From assembly GCA_963664435.2 (NCBI GenBank), contig CAXXKM010000002.1, positions 1,024,001 through 1,088,000 on the forward strand: a stretch of DNA of 64,000 bases. Reading direction: 5' to 3'. Position numbers: made by a program. This DNA is from Longimicrobiales bacterium. Lineage in GTDB: Bacteria > Gemmatimonadota > Gemmatimonadetes > Longimicrobiales > Gaopeijiaceae. Positions 32,201-53,200 of the stretch are shown one piece after another (positions within the stretch are counted from its first letter, which is position 1; each line of letters starts with the position of its first letter).

Positions 32201-35200
32201 GCCGTCCCCGGAAAAGCCGGGGCCGCCGTTGGCGATGATGTGGAAGCGCCGGAAGGCCAGGTCCCAGTCGCGGGCCCCGGGGTCTCCCACCACCGACCCG
32301 CGCGAGAAGTCGAAGAACTGCCATGCGTCGGTTGAGGTGGCGTCCACGGTGTACACGATGGGACCGACCAGCGTCTCGCCGACCTCGGAGGGGTTGGGGG
32401 GCGTCGGGACGTGCGCCTCGATCCCGGGCCGGCCGAACGACATGGTCACCAGCGCGACGGCCAGAACCACGATGATGCCCACCAGCGCGGCCGGCACCCG
32501 GTTCTCCGGGCGGATCCTCAACCGTCCTCGCGCAGCCAGCGTGCGGCCTCCACGGCGTAGTAGGTGACGATGATGTCCGCGCCGGCCCGCCGGATCGCGC
32601 CCAGGCTCTCGAGCGCCACCGCCTTCTCGTCGATCCAGCCGCGTTCGCCCGCGGCGCGCAGCATGCTGAATTCGCCGGAGACCTGGTACGCCGCGGTGGG
32701 CGCGCGGAAGGTATCCTTGACCCGCCGGATCACGTCCAGGCACGGGCCTGCCGGCTTCACCATCACAACGTCCGCGCCCTCCTCCAGGTCGGCCCGCACC
32801 TCGCGCAGCGCTTCGTCGCTGTTGGCGGGGTCCATCTGGTGGGTGCGGCGGTCGCCGTGCGACGGAGCCGAGTGGGCGGCGTCGCGGAAGGGACCATAGA
32901 AGGCGGACGCGTACTTGGCGGCGTACGACACGATGGGGGTTGAGCCGTGACCCGCCGCGTCCAGGGCCGCGCGGATCACGCCCACGCGCCCGTCAAGCAT
33001 GTCGCTCGGGGCCACCGCGTCCGCTCCCGCGCGAGCGTGCGCGACGGCCGCCCGCGCGAGCAGAGGAAGCGTGGCCTCCTCGTCCAGGGCGCCATCCGGC
33101 GTCAGCACGGCGCAGTGGCCGTGGTCGGTGTACTGGCAGAGACACACGTCGGTCCAGACCGGAAGGTCGGGATGATGCGCCTTGAGTGCGCGCACCGCCC
33201 GGGGTACGAGGCCGTCGTCCGCGCAGGCTTCGGAGCCGAGCGCGTCCTTGCGGTCGGGCACTCCGAAGAGGAGCACCGCGCCCACGCCCGCGTCCACGGC
33301 CGCTGCGGCCTCCTCCACCAGCAGTTCGCGGGAAAGGCGGTGTACGCCGGGCATGCTGGGCACGGGCTCGCGCCGTTTTTCGCCCGGCACCACGAAGAGC
33401 GGATACACGAGATCGCGCGCCCGGAGCACGCTCTCGCGTACCAGGCGACGCCAGGCCGGCGACTGCCGGAGGCGGCGGAGACGGTGCTGCGGATAGGCCA
33501 TGCGTCGGGATGCCGCCGGTTTGCGGGAGGGCCGTCCGTCGCGGCGCTCAGCCGGCGCCGCTGCGCGCGCGGTCGCCGTTGGACTCGGCCGGCTCGTCCG
33601 GCGTCAACTGGAAGATTTCCTTGACCGCGGCCAGGCTGGAGACCCCCTCGGAAGTCTCCAGGTCGAGCTCGCGCAGGTGGCAGGTGGGCTGGTGCAGCAG
33701 CCGGGCCACCAGCGAGCGGGTGTAGCGTTCCAGGCGGTCGCGGCTCGACTCGTCGAAACCGGGCAGGTGCCGGCGCACTTCCTCTTCGGCGATCCGGTAG
33801 AAGCTCTCGCGCAGCGACCGGAGCACGGGGACCACCTGCAGCGTTTCGAACCAGTCGACGAAGTTCTGGAGTTCTTCGTCGACGATGCGCTCGACGTGGG
33901 GAATCTGCTTGCTGCGGCGGATCAGGTTCTCCTGCACGATGTCGCCCAGGCTGTCCAGGTCGCGCAGGAAGACGTTGGGAATGCGGCCGGCTCCGGATTC
34001 GACATCCCTGGGATTGGCGATGTCGATGATCACCAGCGGCCTTCCACCCCGCTCGCGTATTATGGCGCAAAGCGTCGCGGCGGTGATGACCGGGTTCGGG
34101 GCGGAGGTCGCGGTCACCACGACGCTTGCCGTCCTGAGCGCGGCGTGGAGTTCGCCGAAGGGCCGCGCGGCCCCGCCGAACTCGTCCGCCAGCGCCCGCG
34201 CGCGTCCGGCGGTGCGGTTGACGATGGTCAGGCTGAGGGGCTTCTTCGCGGCGAAGTTGCGTGCCGCCTGAGCGCCGGTGCGTCCCGCGCCCACCACCAG
34301 CACGGCCTGCTCGGAAAGGTCGGAAAGGATGTTGGTGGCCAGTCGCACCGCGGCGAACGCCACCGACGCCGATCCCTTGCCGATATCCGTTTCCGCGCGC
34401 GCTCGCTTTCCCGTGCGCACGGCGGACTGGAAGAGGCGGGTGAGGTACGGCCCGCAGGTTCCCTCTTCCGCCGCCAGCGCATAGGCCTGGCGTACCTGTC
34501 CCAGCACCTGCGGCTCCCCGATCATGAGCGAATCGAGCCCGGCGGCCACGCGGAAGAGATGATGAGCCCCCTCGCGTCCGCTCAGGGAGAACGTGTGACG
34601 TTCGGTGGATACGGCGTCGTTTTCCTTGATGTCGCGCAGCTTGTGGCGCACCAGTTCGATGGCCCGTGCGGGCTCCCGCGTCCAGGCGAAGATCTCGGTC
34701 CTGGTGCATGTGGAAAGGACCACGCTTTCGCGAATCAGGCGGTCGCCGTGGGCGCCGTCGCCATGCATGTCGACGAGCGTTCCGAGCAGCTTGCGCGTTT
34801 CCTCCCCGGAAAGCGCCAGCCGGTCCCGGGCCGCGGCCGGGGCGACCCTGTGGTTGGTTCCGAATACGAGGAGTTCCACCGTCTCCCTGGATTGAAGCGA
34901 TGTGCTCGGCCCGATCCGTTCCGGGCGAGTCCCGAACCTTTCGGGAAAGCGGGCAGGCAGAAGATGATAATAATTGTCGGTACGGCACGCCTTCAACCTT
35001 GCCCGGTTTCGCGGTCCTGAAGAAGTTGAGCGGTCCGAGTCGGCACCGGCGAGGACTTTACTCCAGCGACGGGATCCCGGTGAGCGACATTCAGGAGCGA
35101 CGCGTCGGAGACCTTCTGATCCAGATCGACCGAAACCTTTGCGTGGGATTCGGCGACTGCATCGAGGCCGCGGAAGCCGCCTTCGAGCTGGACGACGAGG

Positions 35201-50200: not shown

Positions 50201-53200
50201 ACGATGACGGGATTCCACGGCACCCACGTCACGATCGGAATCCTGTGCATGTGGTTCGTGCTGTACCGGGCGTGGCAGGGCAAGTACTCGGCTGACAACT
50301 ACGGAGCGGTGGAGATCGTGGGTCTCTACTGGCACTTCGTCGACCTGGTCTGGATCCTTCTGTTCACCATCGTATACCTGATCTGATCATCGGGGCGGGC
50401 CGCCGCTCGAAACCCAAGGAGATACCCGGATGGCAGGCAACGGAGAACAACCCAGATATTTCCTGATCTGGTTCGTACTGTTCGTTCTGACGATGGCGGA
50501 GGTGGGATACGCATTCCTCGCCCTGCCCCAGTGGCTGCTCGCCACAGGCTTGATCCTGATGGCGGTTTGGAAGGCTCTGCTGGTGGCGCTCTACTACATG
50601 CACCTGAAATACGAGCCCAAGCGACTCTGGCTTCTGGCCGCCAGCCCGTTGCCGCTGGCGGTGATTCTGGTGATCGCCGTTCTGACGGAGTTCTGATCGG
50701 CTGACGGCGAGGAGGGCCGCCGGCCGAGCGAGCCGCGCCGCTCTTCCAACAGCCACGCAAAGCCCTGACCGTGCCCGGTGCGGCGCGGTCAGGGCTTTCT
50801 GGTGGGTGGATCCGCCCACTCTTGCGGCACCGGGGCCTCCGGGCCCAACCTCACTGATAGCCATGGGCCATGTCGCGCGTTCGGGGACGCTGGTCTACGC
50901 CGGTCCAACTGAAGGAGGCAGTCCATGTTCATGAAGCGGTTCTTCTATCCGGGAGCCCTGTCGGGCATGCTCGGCGCCGTTGCGATGGCGCTGTGGTTTC
51001 TGGCCATCGACGCCTCACAGGGGCAGCCCTTCCGCACCCCGGCGTTCCTGGAAGCCGCCCTCCTGGGTCGTGACACGGTCGCCGTGGCTCCGGGCAACGT
51101 CGTGCTCTACTCCGTGATCCACCTGGCGCTCTTCGCGCTGGCCGGTGTGGCGGTCGCCTGGCTGCTGGGCAGGATCAAGGCGGTGCCCGGCGTGCTTGCG
51201 GGGCTGATCGTCGGATTCGTGCTGTACGAGCTGGTGTTCTTTGCGAGCGTAGCGGTGACCGGGGTGGACATCGTCGAGAACCTGGGCTGGCTGGAGTATC
51301 TGACCGGCAACCTGATCGCGGGCGTAACGCTGGTCGGCTACCTGCACATGATGGGGGCGGCCCCGGAGGTTCACTGGTGGTCGATCATGCGCCGCCAGCA
51401 CATCCTGACGGAGGGGATCGTCGCGGGCCTGATCGGCGCGGCCGTGGTGGCCGTCTGGTTCCTGATCTTCGACGCGGTTTCGGGTCAGCCCTTCTTCACG
51501 CCGAGCGCCCTCGGCTCGGCCCTGTTCTTCGGGGTCACCGACCTCGACGCCGTCTCGATCCACATGGGGGCGGTGGTGGGCTATTCCGCCGTGCACCTTG
51601 GCGCGTTCGCGGTGATGGGGGTGGTCGCGTCGGCCGTCCTTACGCAGGCGGAGGAAGTTCCACCACTCCTGCTCGGCGCCGTGCTCCTGTTCGTCGCCTT
51701 CGAGGCCGCCTTCATGGGCTTCATCGCGCTCGGCGCCGAGTTCCTGCTGGGTCCCCTGGCCTGGACCTCGATCGCCTTCGCGAACGTGCTGGCCGCGGGC
51801 GGGATGGGCTACTATCTGTGGCGCAAGCACCCGAAGCTGCGCGCCGCCTTTGCCGCGAATCCGCTCGACAGGACAGCCTGAGGGGGACGCCGGCGCCAGG
51901 CGCCCGGGCTGGATGAGCGGCGCGAACCCCTGCCGGGAGTCGGCGGGCCCGGAGCGCGGCCCTGGCGAGCGGCCTGCGAACCGACCGCGTTTTCCTACCG
52001 CCCGCGCACCTCGTGCCGCCGCAGCACCCGCCCCGGGAGGGCGCCGGTAAGCTCGCCTCCGTCGACCACGGCCTCGCCGTTCACGAACACGTACTCGATC
52101 CCCTCGTTTCCGCCGCCCGGATTGAGGATCGTCGCGTGGTCCTGCACCCGGGGATAGTCGAAGGCGACCAGGTCGGCCTTCTGTCCCGGACGGATGTACC
52201 CGCGGTCGGGAAGCCCGATGATCTGCGCGGGCAGGCCGGTCGAGGAGCGCACGAAGAACGGCAGCGTGATCGTGCCCTTGTCGCGGACGTAGGTCGCGAT
52301 CTTGTGCGGGTAGGTGCCGTAGTAGCGGGGATGCTGTCCGGGAGCCGGGTTCGGGACGATCCCCCCATCCGTGCCGGTCGCCGTGAAGTCCTGGCGCATG
52401 TAGCGCTCGACATCCTCCGGGCTTCCCGCCAGGGGACGGAAGCGAACGCCCGAGCGAAGCGAGGGTTCGCTGTCGAGCGCGAAGTGGATGACCTGCTCCA
52501 CCGGCGTCAGCCCGTTGGCCTTGGCAACCTCCGCCAGGGTGCGGCCGACGAGTGACTCGTCCTGCGGCGAGATGACGATGATGTGCCGGTCCGCGCCGCC
52601 CTGGAGGTCGAGGATGTACTCGATGTCCGTGACCATTTCACGGTGGAGGTCGGGGTCTTCCATATGGGCGCGCAGGTTCTCCTTGTAGTTCCCGAAGAGG
52701 TCGTCGTCGCCGCCCCGCCACCTGGGATCGTCGAGCCCGCCCTCCCGGCTCTCGCCCGGGGGCGCGTAGTACCATGCGGGGATGACCACGGCCGAGCCGC
52801 CCCCGAAGGTCTCGTAGGGATACTGGTCCAGGTAGACCTGGACGCCTTCCGCGCGGGCTCGCCGGATCGCGGCCACGTCGGTCGCCGACTGGCCCCAGGT
52901 GGTCGGGCCCTTCGCCTTGATGTGGGTGCCGACCACGCGGATGCCGGTCTCGCGCCCGATGCGGATGGTTTCGTGCATGCCGTCGGTGGCCGTGAGTCTC
53001 CAGCCCGGCGGCCAGGTCGGGGGCGGCGTGTACTCGTCCACGATGCTCGGGGTGAGCCACAGCGGAAGCGGGGACTGGCTGCGCTGGTGGGAGTAGTAGA
53101 AGCCGTCGTAGTCGGCCACCACGTGTGCGAGAGCGATGATCTCCCCGGTCGTGGAGAAGCGTCCGGGCCGGTACTCGGGTCCCGCGCCCAGCCCCCAGGC

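What a model noticed while it worked through the whole genome (the two positions that open the first line are those of the whole stretch)
35080..50696. A CydB-less bd-type oxidase subunit sits in an invariant 12-gene cluster with PCP_red-tagged maturases, three cytochrome [...]
The genome's only cytochrome bd subunit (630 aa, no cydB anywhere) is of the quinol-site-less, Nitrospira-like kind and is encoded between a ferredoxin, an Mrp Fe-S carrier, three proteins bearing the DPOR BchB C-terminal (PCP_red) domain (one with two Usp domains, one an AhbD/NirJ2-like radical SAM) and three c-type cytochromes, directly ahead of coxBAC. The fixed order suggests a cytochrome-c-fed bd-like complex with its own haem-maturation module in heterotrophic marine Gemmatimonadota.
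Evidence so far: Pfam/NCBIfam calls 217, 219 (only one Cyt_bd row in the genome). In all 46 full-length loci of 80 fetched, Fd, Mrp, PCP_red, Usp-PCP_red, rSAM, bd subunit, three cytochromes, the following gene and coxB are present, 45 in the same order. PCP_red in 94% of genus, 31% of phylum, 6.6% of bacteria. Search for this gene combination gave no relevant paper.
(Added by a program. Inside this text positions count along the whole contig: contig position 1,024,001 is position 1 of the stretch shown here. "Call 12" and the like, gene names such as g00115 and contig names such as C1 are that model's own, and its searches are not shown. The text may have been shortened before it was handed on; [...] marks where a part breaks off. 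The agent that wrote the report below was given it as the finding of a first reader that could run no searches.)

Follow-up and report, generated by a model that had tools for sequence, protein, structure and literature searches.

The report
bd-like oxidase operon with haem helpers
This bacterium carries an already catalogued but never tested kind of respiratory oxidase, first noted in nitrite oxidisers, together with a set of unstudied helper genes that always come with it and probably make or deliver its haem.

Summary
The cluster is real. It has 15 genes, not 12, and only Usp→coxD keeps a fixed order (44 of 44 full loci). The CydB-less subunit belongs to the described OR-N family: it is 49–52% identical to the Nitrospira NIDE0901-type protein and has the same bd–c–c–EbdC-like gene order. 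My trees do not resolve the subfamily. New here: the radical SAM enzyme and the oxidase occur in the same 72 of 251 Gemmatimonadota genomes. ACIII is in 71 of those 72, so the oxidase does not replace a missing complex III. ChdC is in 66 of 72. A conserved σ70 promoter has no FNR box, and probable Nitrospira marina orthologues are abundant and not induced by low O2, which weakens the idea of an anaerobic AhbD back-up. The gene before coxB encodes a type-1 copper lipoprotein. Mrp is predicted to bind the zinc-ribbon PCP_red protein (0.71, controls 0.00), but not through PCP_red. Most likely this is a cytochrome-c/copper-fed oxidase with its own haem tailoring and delivery set. No activity is shown. 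The scan reported this module before, in other genomes.

The parts
32518..33501 (-). hemB, porphobilinogen synthase (divergent neighbour, not fixed)
   Evidence: NF006762 above cut-off; next to the cluster in 12 of 44 full loci
33548..34996 (-). hemA, glutamyl-tRNA reductase (longest ORF; true start further in)
   Evidence: TIGR01035 above cut-off; next to the cluster in 11 of 44 full loci
35080..35325 (+). Single-cluster ferredoxin (start codon uncertain)
   Evidence: Fer4_15 and Fer4_13 above cut-off; 43 of 44 loci
35348..36256 (+). Mrp/NBP35-type P-loop ATPase, probable Fe-S carrier, with a conserved N-terminal extension
   Evidence: PF10609 218 bits; Walker A invariant; C224 and C227 each in 50 of 62 rows
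36253..36705 (+). 150-aa protein: two Cys pairs (zinc-ribbon-like) plus PCP_red at residues 98-142; predicted partner of Mrp
   Evidence: PF08369; C5, C8, C31, C34 invariant in 54 rows; complex score 0.71 versus best control 0.00
36702..37154 (+). Small membrane protein, no family (start uncertain)
   Evidence: no Pfam or NCBIfam hit; 26 of 44 loci
37225..37254 (+). Sigma-70-type promoter match (12 of 12) ahead of the fixed core
   Evidence: at least 10 of 12 in 34 of 56 orthologous upstream regions versus 1.5% of shuffles; start site not mapped
37497..39614 (+). 705-aa tandem Usp with two PCP_red domains; each Usp domain has a helical insert with a His pair (H44/H72, H263/H291)
   Evidence: fold matches tandem Usps such as Rv2623; His invariant in 70 rows and kept in a distant subtype
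39614..41062 (+). Radical SAM/SPASM enzyme of the AhbD/NirJ2 neighbourhood with C-terminal PCP_red
   Evidence: TIGR04055 and TIGR04545 about 267 bits, cut-off 500; CX2CX5CX2CX17C motif; own clade
41046..42938 (+). 630-aa CydA-family subunit, OR-N type (closest to the NIDE0901/OR-N2 group), no quinol-site residues
   Evidence: PF01654; model pLDDT 91, Z 32-35 to solved CydA; alignment and identities
42948..43748 (+). c1, membrane-anchored dihaem cytochrome c; fused to the bd subunit in some relatives
   Evidence: 2 CxxCH, 1 hydrophobic helix; fusions P0122, P0124, P0137
43777..44580 (+). c2, monohaem cytochrome c with three hydrophobic helices
   Evidence: orthologue in the same position in Nitrospira-type loci
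44580..46184 (+). c3, dihaem cytochrome c fused to an EbdC/NxrC-like domain that has lost the Lys haem b ligand
   Evidence: PF09459; alignment to 2IVF_C; no Lys at position 478 in any of 64 rows, Met at 385 in 34 of 64
46219..47097 (+). Probable lipoprotein with a type-1 (blue) copper site, H157/C194/H197/M200
   Evidence: C194, H197, M200, N158 in 62 of 62 rows, H157 conserved; weak plastocyanin/amicyanin hits, best E 0.03
47212..50696 (+). coxB, coxA, coxC, coxD: A-type haem-copper oxidase; CoxB has CuA but no cytochrome c domain
   Evidence: the only A-type oxidase found in this genome

Best explanation
A housekeeping respiratory operon in two halves. Membrane half: an OR-N (NIDE0901/OR-N2-like) haem protein that works without CydB and without a quinol site. 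Reduced cytochrome c comes from alternative complex III, passes through c1/c2/c3 and a blue-copper lipoprotein, and the OR-N protein reduces O2 at the His88 haem; the A-type oxidase coxBACD draws on the same pool. Cytoplasmic half: Mrp with its zinc-ribbon partner loads Fe-S clusters, the ferredoxin supplies electrons, the AhbD-like radical SAM enzyme finishes or alters the side chains of a haem for this oxidase, and the tandem-Usp protein holds haem between its His pairs and hands it on. Shown: gene content, residues, co-distribution. Modelled: Mrp binding its neighbour. Inferred: O2 reduction, the direction of electron flow, the enzyme's substrate, haem binding by the Usp. My odds by step: OR-N family 0.95; c/Cu-fed O2 reductase about 0.65; helper set serving this oxidase's haem about 0.6.
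For: Haem ligands H88 (CydA H19), H256 (H186) and M427 (M393), plus E175 and R553, are conserved in 80-81 of 81 rows; the quinol residues K252/E257 are lost. The subunit is fused to c1 in P0122, P0124 and P0137. bd-c1-c2-EbdC-like order recurs in 31 of 31 Nitrospira-type loci over 14 kb that I printed, of 80 fetched. ActC is in 71 of 72 oxidase-bearing genomes. The rSAM orthologue and the oxidase orthologue mark the same 72 of 251 genomes (kin are not independent). The copper protein also sits beside second OR-N copies (2 of 3 loci; the third starts at a contig end) and is missing beside the same cox clade in 3 of 3 genomes that lack OR-N. The rSAM has the AhbD auxiliary-cluster motif. Haem genes are often adjacent: hemA/hemB here, chdC just after coxD in others. 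Mrp with the 150-aa protein scored 0.71, best of 3 controls 0.00; the mark was reached by 116 of 157 solved and 2 of 215 mismatched pairs; runs agree in at least 90% of contacts; partner pLDDT at least 79.
Against: No OR-N enzyme has a measured activity (Kop et al.) or a solved structure among the sequence hits. The E445 haem ligand and the E99-equivalent proton-channel Glu (Y168) are not kept, so the O2 site may differ or be absent. The strict anaerobe Kuenenia also has a bd-like oxidase. In Nitrospira-type loci the helper genes are not within 10 kb of the oxidase, and in N. marina the probable orthologues lie about 540 gene numbers from bd-like_6/7 and near hemL, which fits general haem synthesis as well. 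The EbdC-like domain has lost a haem ligand, so it may carry no electrons. The helical inserts of the Usp model are partly low in confidence.
Confidence: 0.45

Rival explanations
1. The radical SAM enzyme is a plain coproheme decarboxylase (AhbD role) that makes bulk haem b without peroxide. The helpers keep it loaded and reduced, and the link to the oxidase reflects haem demand, not a special cofactor.
For: AhbD and NirJ2 are the best NCBIfam families for the window protein and match all 52 aligned members. The AhbD motif CX2CX5CX2CX17C is exact. The genome makes coproheme (hemE, hemY, hemH). Haloferax uses ChdC aerobically and AhbD anaerobically (PMC5746218 abstract). hemA/hemB or chdC are often neighbours.
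Against: The score is about half the cut-off, and the proteins form a clade apart from closer AhbD-like proteins (431-446 bits) and from TIGR04053. ChdC is in 66 of 72 module genomes, and 10 of the module genomes I sampled also hold a TIGR04053 enzyme above cut-off. None of the 42 ChdC genomes without the oxidase has a full-length orthologue; one of them (G178) has a copy cut by a contig end. No conserved FNR box (4 of 56, chance 5%). The probable N. marina orthologues are not induced at about 5.6 uM O2 (rSAM fold 0.63, Usp 0.99), although that is not anoxia.
Confidence: 0.25
2. The bd-like protein is not an O2 reductase but a transmembrane electron conduit (for example quinol to cytochrome c or copper protein, or the reverse) that feeds coxBACD.
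For: E445 and the E99 equivalent are lost. The genes run straight into coxBACD, whose CoxB lacks a cytochrome c domain. 70 of 72 oxidase genomes have this cox clade. Luecker et al. 2013 raised an alternative-complex-III-like role.
Against: The quinol-binding K/E residues are gone. ActC is in 240 of 251 genomes and 71 of 72 module genomes, so no complex III is missing. The same cox clade stands alone in 3 genomes. The His of the O2 site is kept.
Confidence: 0.15
3. The radical SAM/SPASM enzyme modifies a protein (a cross-link or residue cofactor in the oxidase or a partner), not a tetrapyrrole.
For: It has a SPASM domain, and its nearest solved relatives by sequence are the peptide-modifying enzymes PqqE and SkfB. 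One-to-one distribution with the oxidase.
Against: Tetrapyrrole families score about 267 bits against 108-150 for peptide maturases. No AhbD structure exists to compete in the PDB search. A small leader ORF is not conserved, so no precursor peptide was found.
Confidence: 0.1
4. The two halves are functionally independent and stay together only by inheritance of one block.
For: All Gemmatimonadota copies may descend from one acquisition, so the 72 genomes are not independent. The halves are apart in Nitrospira-type loci. One genome has a divergent helper set with no oxidase found (G050; both contig ends cut it).
Against: No genome in 251 has the oxidase orthologue without the rSAM orthologue, despite patchy presence across seven families. 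One promoter heads both halves in many loci. A 159-aa PCP_red protein lies two genes from bd-like_2 in N. marina.
Confidence: 0.05

Closest known systems
OR-N2 subfamily of the cytochrome bd superfamily (Murali, Gennis and Hemp, bioRxiv 10.1101/2021.01.16.426971; NIDE0901-like in Kop et al. 2025, PMC12342949)
   Same: No quinol site, His19 kept, about 14 helices, no CydB, cytochromes c in the operon. The preprint says OR-N2 is often in operons without a second cydA. 49-52% identity to the Nitrospira protein.
   Different: Heterotroph host with no NXR/Nar alpha subunit above cut-off; only one CydA in the genome, so no OR-N1 partner; joined to coxBACD and to the helper genes.
TO_1 complex of Ca. 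Manganitrophaceae and Nitrospirota (bioRxiv 10.1101/2021.11.15.468770)
   Same: A bd-like oxidase, two cytochromes c and a periplasmic cytochrome b-type domain, in the same gene order as Nitrospira-type loci.
   Different: Here the EbdC-like domain is fused to a dihaem cytochrome and lacks the Lys ligand; a blue-copper lipoprotein and an A-type oxidase follow.
AhbD haem b synthase / NirJ2 (TIGR04545, TIGR04055)
   Same: Radical SAM motif and the C-terminal CX2CX5CX2CX17C motif.
   Different: About 267 bits against a cut-off of 500; separate clade; PCP_red tail; no AhbA/B found in the genome; ChdC present.
PCP_red domain of BchB/ChlB (PF08369; PDB 2KRU, 2L09, 2YNM)
   Same: Same 45-residue domain.
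   Different: Four copies on three non-photosynthetic proteins. In the model with Mrp only 4 of 57 contact residues are in PCP_red, unlike the BchB-BchL contact that I recall from the DPOR complex (paper not held).
Tandem universal stress proteins (Rv2623, TTHA0350, UspE)
   Same: Two-domain Usp fold.
   Different: Long helical inserts with invariant His pairs, two PCP_red domains, about 70% identity across orders; the probable N. marina orthologue is not induced at low O2 while four short Usps are.

Membership tests
OR-N (cytochrome bd superfamily) | CydA fold with His19 equivalent | tested here: met
   Z 32-35, rmsd 3.4-4.0 over 341-358 residues; H88 in 80 of 81 rows
OR-N | Quinol-site Lys252/Glu257 absent | tested here: met
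   sequence alignment with five canonical CydA
OR-N | Operon with other electron donors, no CydB | tested here: met
   (genome 96% complete)
OR-N | Groups with Nitrospirota OR-N, apart from qOR | tested here: met
   branch between qOR outgroup and all OR-N rows 100/100; references labelled by source names and synteny, not the authors' HMMs
OR-N2 subfamily | Clade with the NIDE0901 group rather than OR-N1 | tested here: inconclusive
   nearest named group by identity, 49-52% versus 32-36% for the upstream paralogue; tree fork open; AU test rejects no alternative, p 0.13, 0.06, 0.23
OR-N1/N2 | 14 transmembrane helices | tested here: inconclusive
   about 13 long helices in the 533-aa model plus an N-terminal hydrophobic segment that may be a signal peptide; hydropathy alone found 11
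OR-N | O2 reductase activity | not testable with these tools
   untested for the whole family
qOR (canonical bd) | Quinol site and CydB | tested here: not met
OR-C | CxxCH motifs in subunit I | tested here: not met
   0 CxxCH
TO_1 complex | Periplasmic cytochrome b with Met/Lys ligands | tested here: not met
   L385 and G478 align with the EbdC Met and Lys (ligand identity recalled); Lys in 0 of 64 rows
AhbD | CX3CX2C and CX2CX5CX2CX17C motifs | tested here: met
AhbD | TIGR04545 curated cut-off (500 bits) | tested here: not met
   267.7 bits; closer AhbD-like proteins in the phylum score 431-446 and form another clade
AhbD | Coproheme to haem b activity | not testable with these tools
   needs assay
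Sirohaem-dependent (Ahb) pathway | AhbA/B and AhbC in the genome | tested here: not met
   PF17805 0 matches; no second rSAM match at E 1e-25
Mrp/ApbC Fe-S carriers | Deviant Walker A and C-terminal Cys pair | tested here: met
   PF10609; C224, C227 in 50 of 62 rows; below the ApbC and MrpORP cut-offs
Type-1 copper proteins | His, Cys, His, Met ligand set | tested here: met
   copper binding not measured

The most novel reading that the evidence does not exclude
OR-N oxidases, including the presumed main terminal oxidase of Nitrospira, use a haem that is not plain haem b or d. It is made by this AhbD-like enzyme and carried by a His-pair tandem Usp acting as an ATP-gated haem chaperone, with a Mrp-zinc-ribbon pair as a dedicated Fe-S loader. 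The five genes would be the missing maturation pathway of a whole oxidase family, and a lone OR-N subunit would be enough for cytochrome-c- or copper-fed O2 reduction in a heterotroph.
Probability: 0.2. Interest if true: 0.85.

Novelty: new variant of a known kind. Interest (0 to 1): 0.55.

Why it matters
No OR-N oxidase has been shown to work, yet it is the proposed terminal oxidase of the main nitrite oxidisers. This operon holds one OR-N subunit, its cytochromes and candidate maturation genes in one block, so it offers a minimal set to express and assay; expression of the subunit alone may fail without the helpers. It also changes how the phylum is read. 134 of 251 genomes have a CydA-like match, but 72 of those carry the CydB-less type, so a published count of 'cytochrome bd in 53% of genomes', discussed as a quinol oxidase (PMC9426454), probably mixes two different enzymes.

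Tried and rejected
PCP_red as the docking tag for Mrp, by analogy with BchB and BchL: in the model only residues 112, 115, 116 and 119 of the domain touch Mrp; the interface is the zinc ribbon and linker. FNR-type control of the core promoter: 4 of 56 regions within two mismatches, chance 5%. A 43-codon leader ORF as a precursor peptide: not kept even in the three closest loci. RNA families in 34800-51200: none at gathering score. Oxidase as a stand-in for complex III: ActC is nearly universal. 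Subfamily by tree: unresolved; the first mixture-model run did not finish, and searches used LG+G4 on 52 and 21 of 80 rows. Fold search of the Usp model gave only known Usps. Expression in this lineage: contigs of four RNA runs from four studies cover all 30 bins at 85% likeness, mostly from relatives; they show neither level nor co-transcription, and no silent control stretch was laid. Interface residues were barely more conserved than the rest (Mrp 0.67 versus 0.63; partner 0.79 versus 0.74). Kop et al. 2025 supplements held no OR-N, NIDE or PCP_red terms. The last homologue search named almost no taxa.

Full report
OBSERVATION. The span 35080-50696 holds 15 genes on the + strand: ferredoxin, Mrp, a 150-aa Cys-pair/PCP_red protein, a small membrane protein, a 705-aa Usp-Usp-PCP_red-PCP_red protein, a radical SAM/SPASM-PCP_red enzyme, a 630-aa CydA-family subunit, three c-type cytochromes (2, 1 and 2 CxxCH), a 292-aa protein, and coxBACD. 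hemA and hemB diverge upstream. The genome (96% complete) has one PF01654 match, no PF02322 match and four PCP_red matches, all in this cluster. Of 80 related loci, 44 were full length. Usp to coxD was collinear in 44 of 44. Fd, Mrp and the small PCP_red gene were in 43 of 44, with Fd first in 32 and third in 11. So there is a fixed core and a looser front block. This fits a perfect sigma-70 match at 37225-37254, just before the core; 34 of 56 orthologous upstream regions score at least 10 of 12, against 1.5% of shuffles.

THE OXIDASE SUBUNIT. The model (pLDDT 91) matches solved CydA chains at Z 32-35; the PDB sequence search gave only two distant qOR chains. Against canonical CydA, H88, H256, M427, E175 and R553 line up with H19, H186, M393, E107 and R448. 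The E99 position is Tyr168, the quinol residues K252/E257 are gone, and no Glu stands at the E445 position, where an invariant MxxM stretch (M542, M545) appears. E. coli residue roles beyond those quoted in the preprint are recalled, and these equivalences come from sequence alignment only. Identity is 49-52% to a conserved Nitrospiraceae protein (P0126 group, names), 32-36% to its upstream paralogue and 24-30% over part of the length to canonical CydA. In the 31 Nitrospira-type metagenome loci over 14 kb that I printed (of 80), the order bd-c1-c2-EbdC-like is the same as here. Their layout (HpnH-like gene, bd, cytochrome, Rieske, cytochrome b, bd, c, c, EbdC-like) matches the numbering of bd-like_7, bd-like_6 and nxrC-like_1 in N. 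marina, and that paper calls bd-like_6 the proposed terminal oxidase. Kop et al. 2025 call the NIDE0901-like subunit OR-N2. That chain of inference labels my references; I did not have the authors' HMMs. Trees place the protein with OR-N and away from qOR (100/100) but leave the subfamily open, and AU tests reject none of the alternatives. Three relatives have c1 fused to the subunit, one of them named as Nitrospinae, which supports a cytochrome-c-facing complex.

THE ELECTRON CARRIERS. The EbdC-like domain of c3 has Leu and Gly where EbdC has its Met and Lys; Lys is absent in all 64 rows and Met is in 34, so it probably binds no haem b. The 292-aa protein has a lipoprotein-like N-terminus and the His, Cys, His, Met set of type-1 copper sites, with weak plastocyanin and amicyanin hits. 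An earlier scan note (e1-3305039) gave me the lead that it is a copper protein. It accompanies second OR-N copies and is absent beside the same cox clade in three genomes that lack OR-N, so it belongs with OR-N. A six-gene ACIII-like cluster lies at 2083-9690 in this window (the act names are my reading of the gene set). ActC was found in 240 of 251 phylum genomes and 71 of 72 with the oxidase. No type II DMSO reductase alpha subunit passed the cut-off, so this is not an NXR module.

THE HELPER GENES. In 251 genomes, 72 have the oxidase orthologue and the same 72 have the rSAM orthologue; all 72 have PCP_red. Eleven more have PCP_red: two checked are BchB-type, two are module pieces cut by contig ends, seven were not checked. 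These tallies include unpublished genomes (G180 among the 72; G055, G095, G155 among the rest) and are not independent samples. The rSAM has the exact AhbD auxiliary motif but scores about 267 against a cut-off of 500 and forms its own clade beside AhbD-like, TIGR04053 and AhbC-like proteins of the phylum. The genome has chdC, hemL, hemE, hemH and hemY together, plus ctaA and ctaB elsewhere, and no AhbA/B match. ChdC is in 66 of 72 module genomes and 42 of 179 others. The Usp protein has a tandem-Usp fold; each domain carries a helical insert with two His 28 residues apart, invariant in 70 rows and kept in a distant subtype. Haem binding there is my inference. Mrp (two copies, with ATP and Mg) and the 150-aa protein were predicted to bind: 0.71, best of three controls 0.00; 116 of 157 solved and 2 of 215 mismatched pairs reach the mark, and these counts hold only roughly for my alignments and ligands. 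The contact uses the Mrp N-terminal extension and residues 91-151 and the partner's residues 1-85; only 4 of 57 partner contacts are in PCP_red. What PCP_red binds stays open.

BEYOND THIS PHYLUM. The Atlas lists Usp plus PCP_red clusters commonest in Nitrospirota (511 members, score 0.89, a lead only) and Pseudomonadota, and small PCP_red proteins in Acidobacteriota. The N. marina proteome table lists a 306-aa partitioning-type ATPase next to a 257-aa PCP_red protein, a 699-aa Usp next to a 460-aa rSAM/SPASM protein, and a 159-aa PCP_red protein two genes from bd-like_2. I match these by name, length and adjacency, without sequences. The Usp has 97-132 spectral counts; fold changes at low O2 are 0.99 (Usp), 0.99 (257-aa protein), 0.63 (rSAM) and 0.49 (ATPase), none marked significant, while four short Usps rise. 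This speaks for a housekeeping role. Against a tight link, these pairs are not beside the NIDE0901-type gene in Nitrospira.

MECHANISM. Best reading (0.45): a cytochrome-c- and copper-fed OR-N oxidase, parallel to the A-type oxidase and downstream of ACIII, with a cytoplasmic set that finishes or alters its haem and delivers it. Rivals: a plain AhbD role for bulk haem b (0.25); an electron conduit to coxBACD (0.15); protein modification by the rSAM (0.10); no functional link (0.05).

LITERATURE SEEN. Murali preprint: parts 2-4 of 6 of the text; supplements closed and journal version not held. Kop 2024 (PMC10839748) and Kop 2025 (PMC12342949): passages; for 2025 also term searches of 11 supplementary files, the PDF being too large. 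Luecker 2013, the Manganitrophaceae preprint, PMC9426454, PMC10114771 and PMC13474568: passages. PMC5746218: abstract. PMC8115632: passages and rows of supplements 2 and 4. I found no paper on the helper set (25 of 56 hits listed, all unrelated by title; 0 papers; 1 paper); the library lacks most subscription journals.

VERDICT. A real, strongly conserved operon. The membrane half is a new member of a described but untested oxidase kind; the helper half is undescribed in what I could search, but this scan has noted it in at least ten other windows. Novelty: new variant of a known kind. Interest 0.55.

Noticed in passing
window 2083-9690 (-): Six-gene ACIII-like cluster (pentahaem cytochrome, fused molybdopterin-like/Fe-S subunit, NrfD protein, three more). 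Its ActC has matches in 240 of 251 phylum genomes, whereas PMC9426454 reported ACIII in under 10% by KEGG annotation.
   Followed up: partly
L168, L169, L170 (G058, G125, G084): A second, divergent OR-N module (about 53% identity) with its own c1, c2, c3 and, in two loci, two or three copper-protein genes upstream.
   Followed up: partly
P0122, P0124, P0137: OR-N subunit fused to the first cytochrome c; such fusions blur the line between OR-N and OR-C as defined by haem c motifs.
   Followed up: no
L203-L204 (G060) and other family f4 genomes: chdC, followed by hemE- and hemH-like genes, lies just after coxD; in this genome the same genes are on another contig and hemA/hemB are adjacent instead.
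   Followed up: partly
phylum sample: 143 of 251 Gemmatimonadota genomes have no ChdC match, including all 18 of the sister genus g2, which also lacks the module; their haem route or haem uptake was not examined.
   Followed up: no
L166 (G050:C4): A divergent helper set (rSAM 48% identical) in which a probable toxin-antitoxin pair and other genes lie between Usp and Mrp; no OR-N found in that assembly.
   Followed up: partly
window 50925-51881 (+): 318-aa membrane protein with an apparent internal repeat and no Pfam or NCBIfam hit, near the cluster in 26 of 44 full loci.
   Followed up: no
L182:6451-8660 (G000:C3): A second, distant haem-copper oxidase (26% to CoxA), probably B-type.
   Followed up: no
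window 37255-37496: A leader of about 240 bases between the promoter match and the Usp start; long leaders recur in many loci but without shared sequence, ORF or Rfam match.
   Followed up: partly
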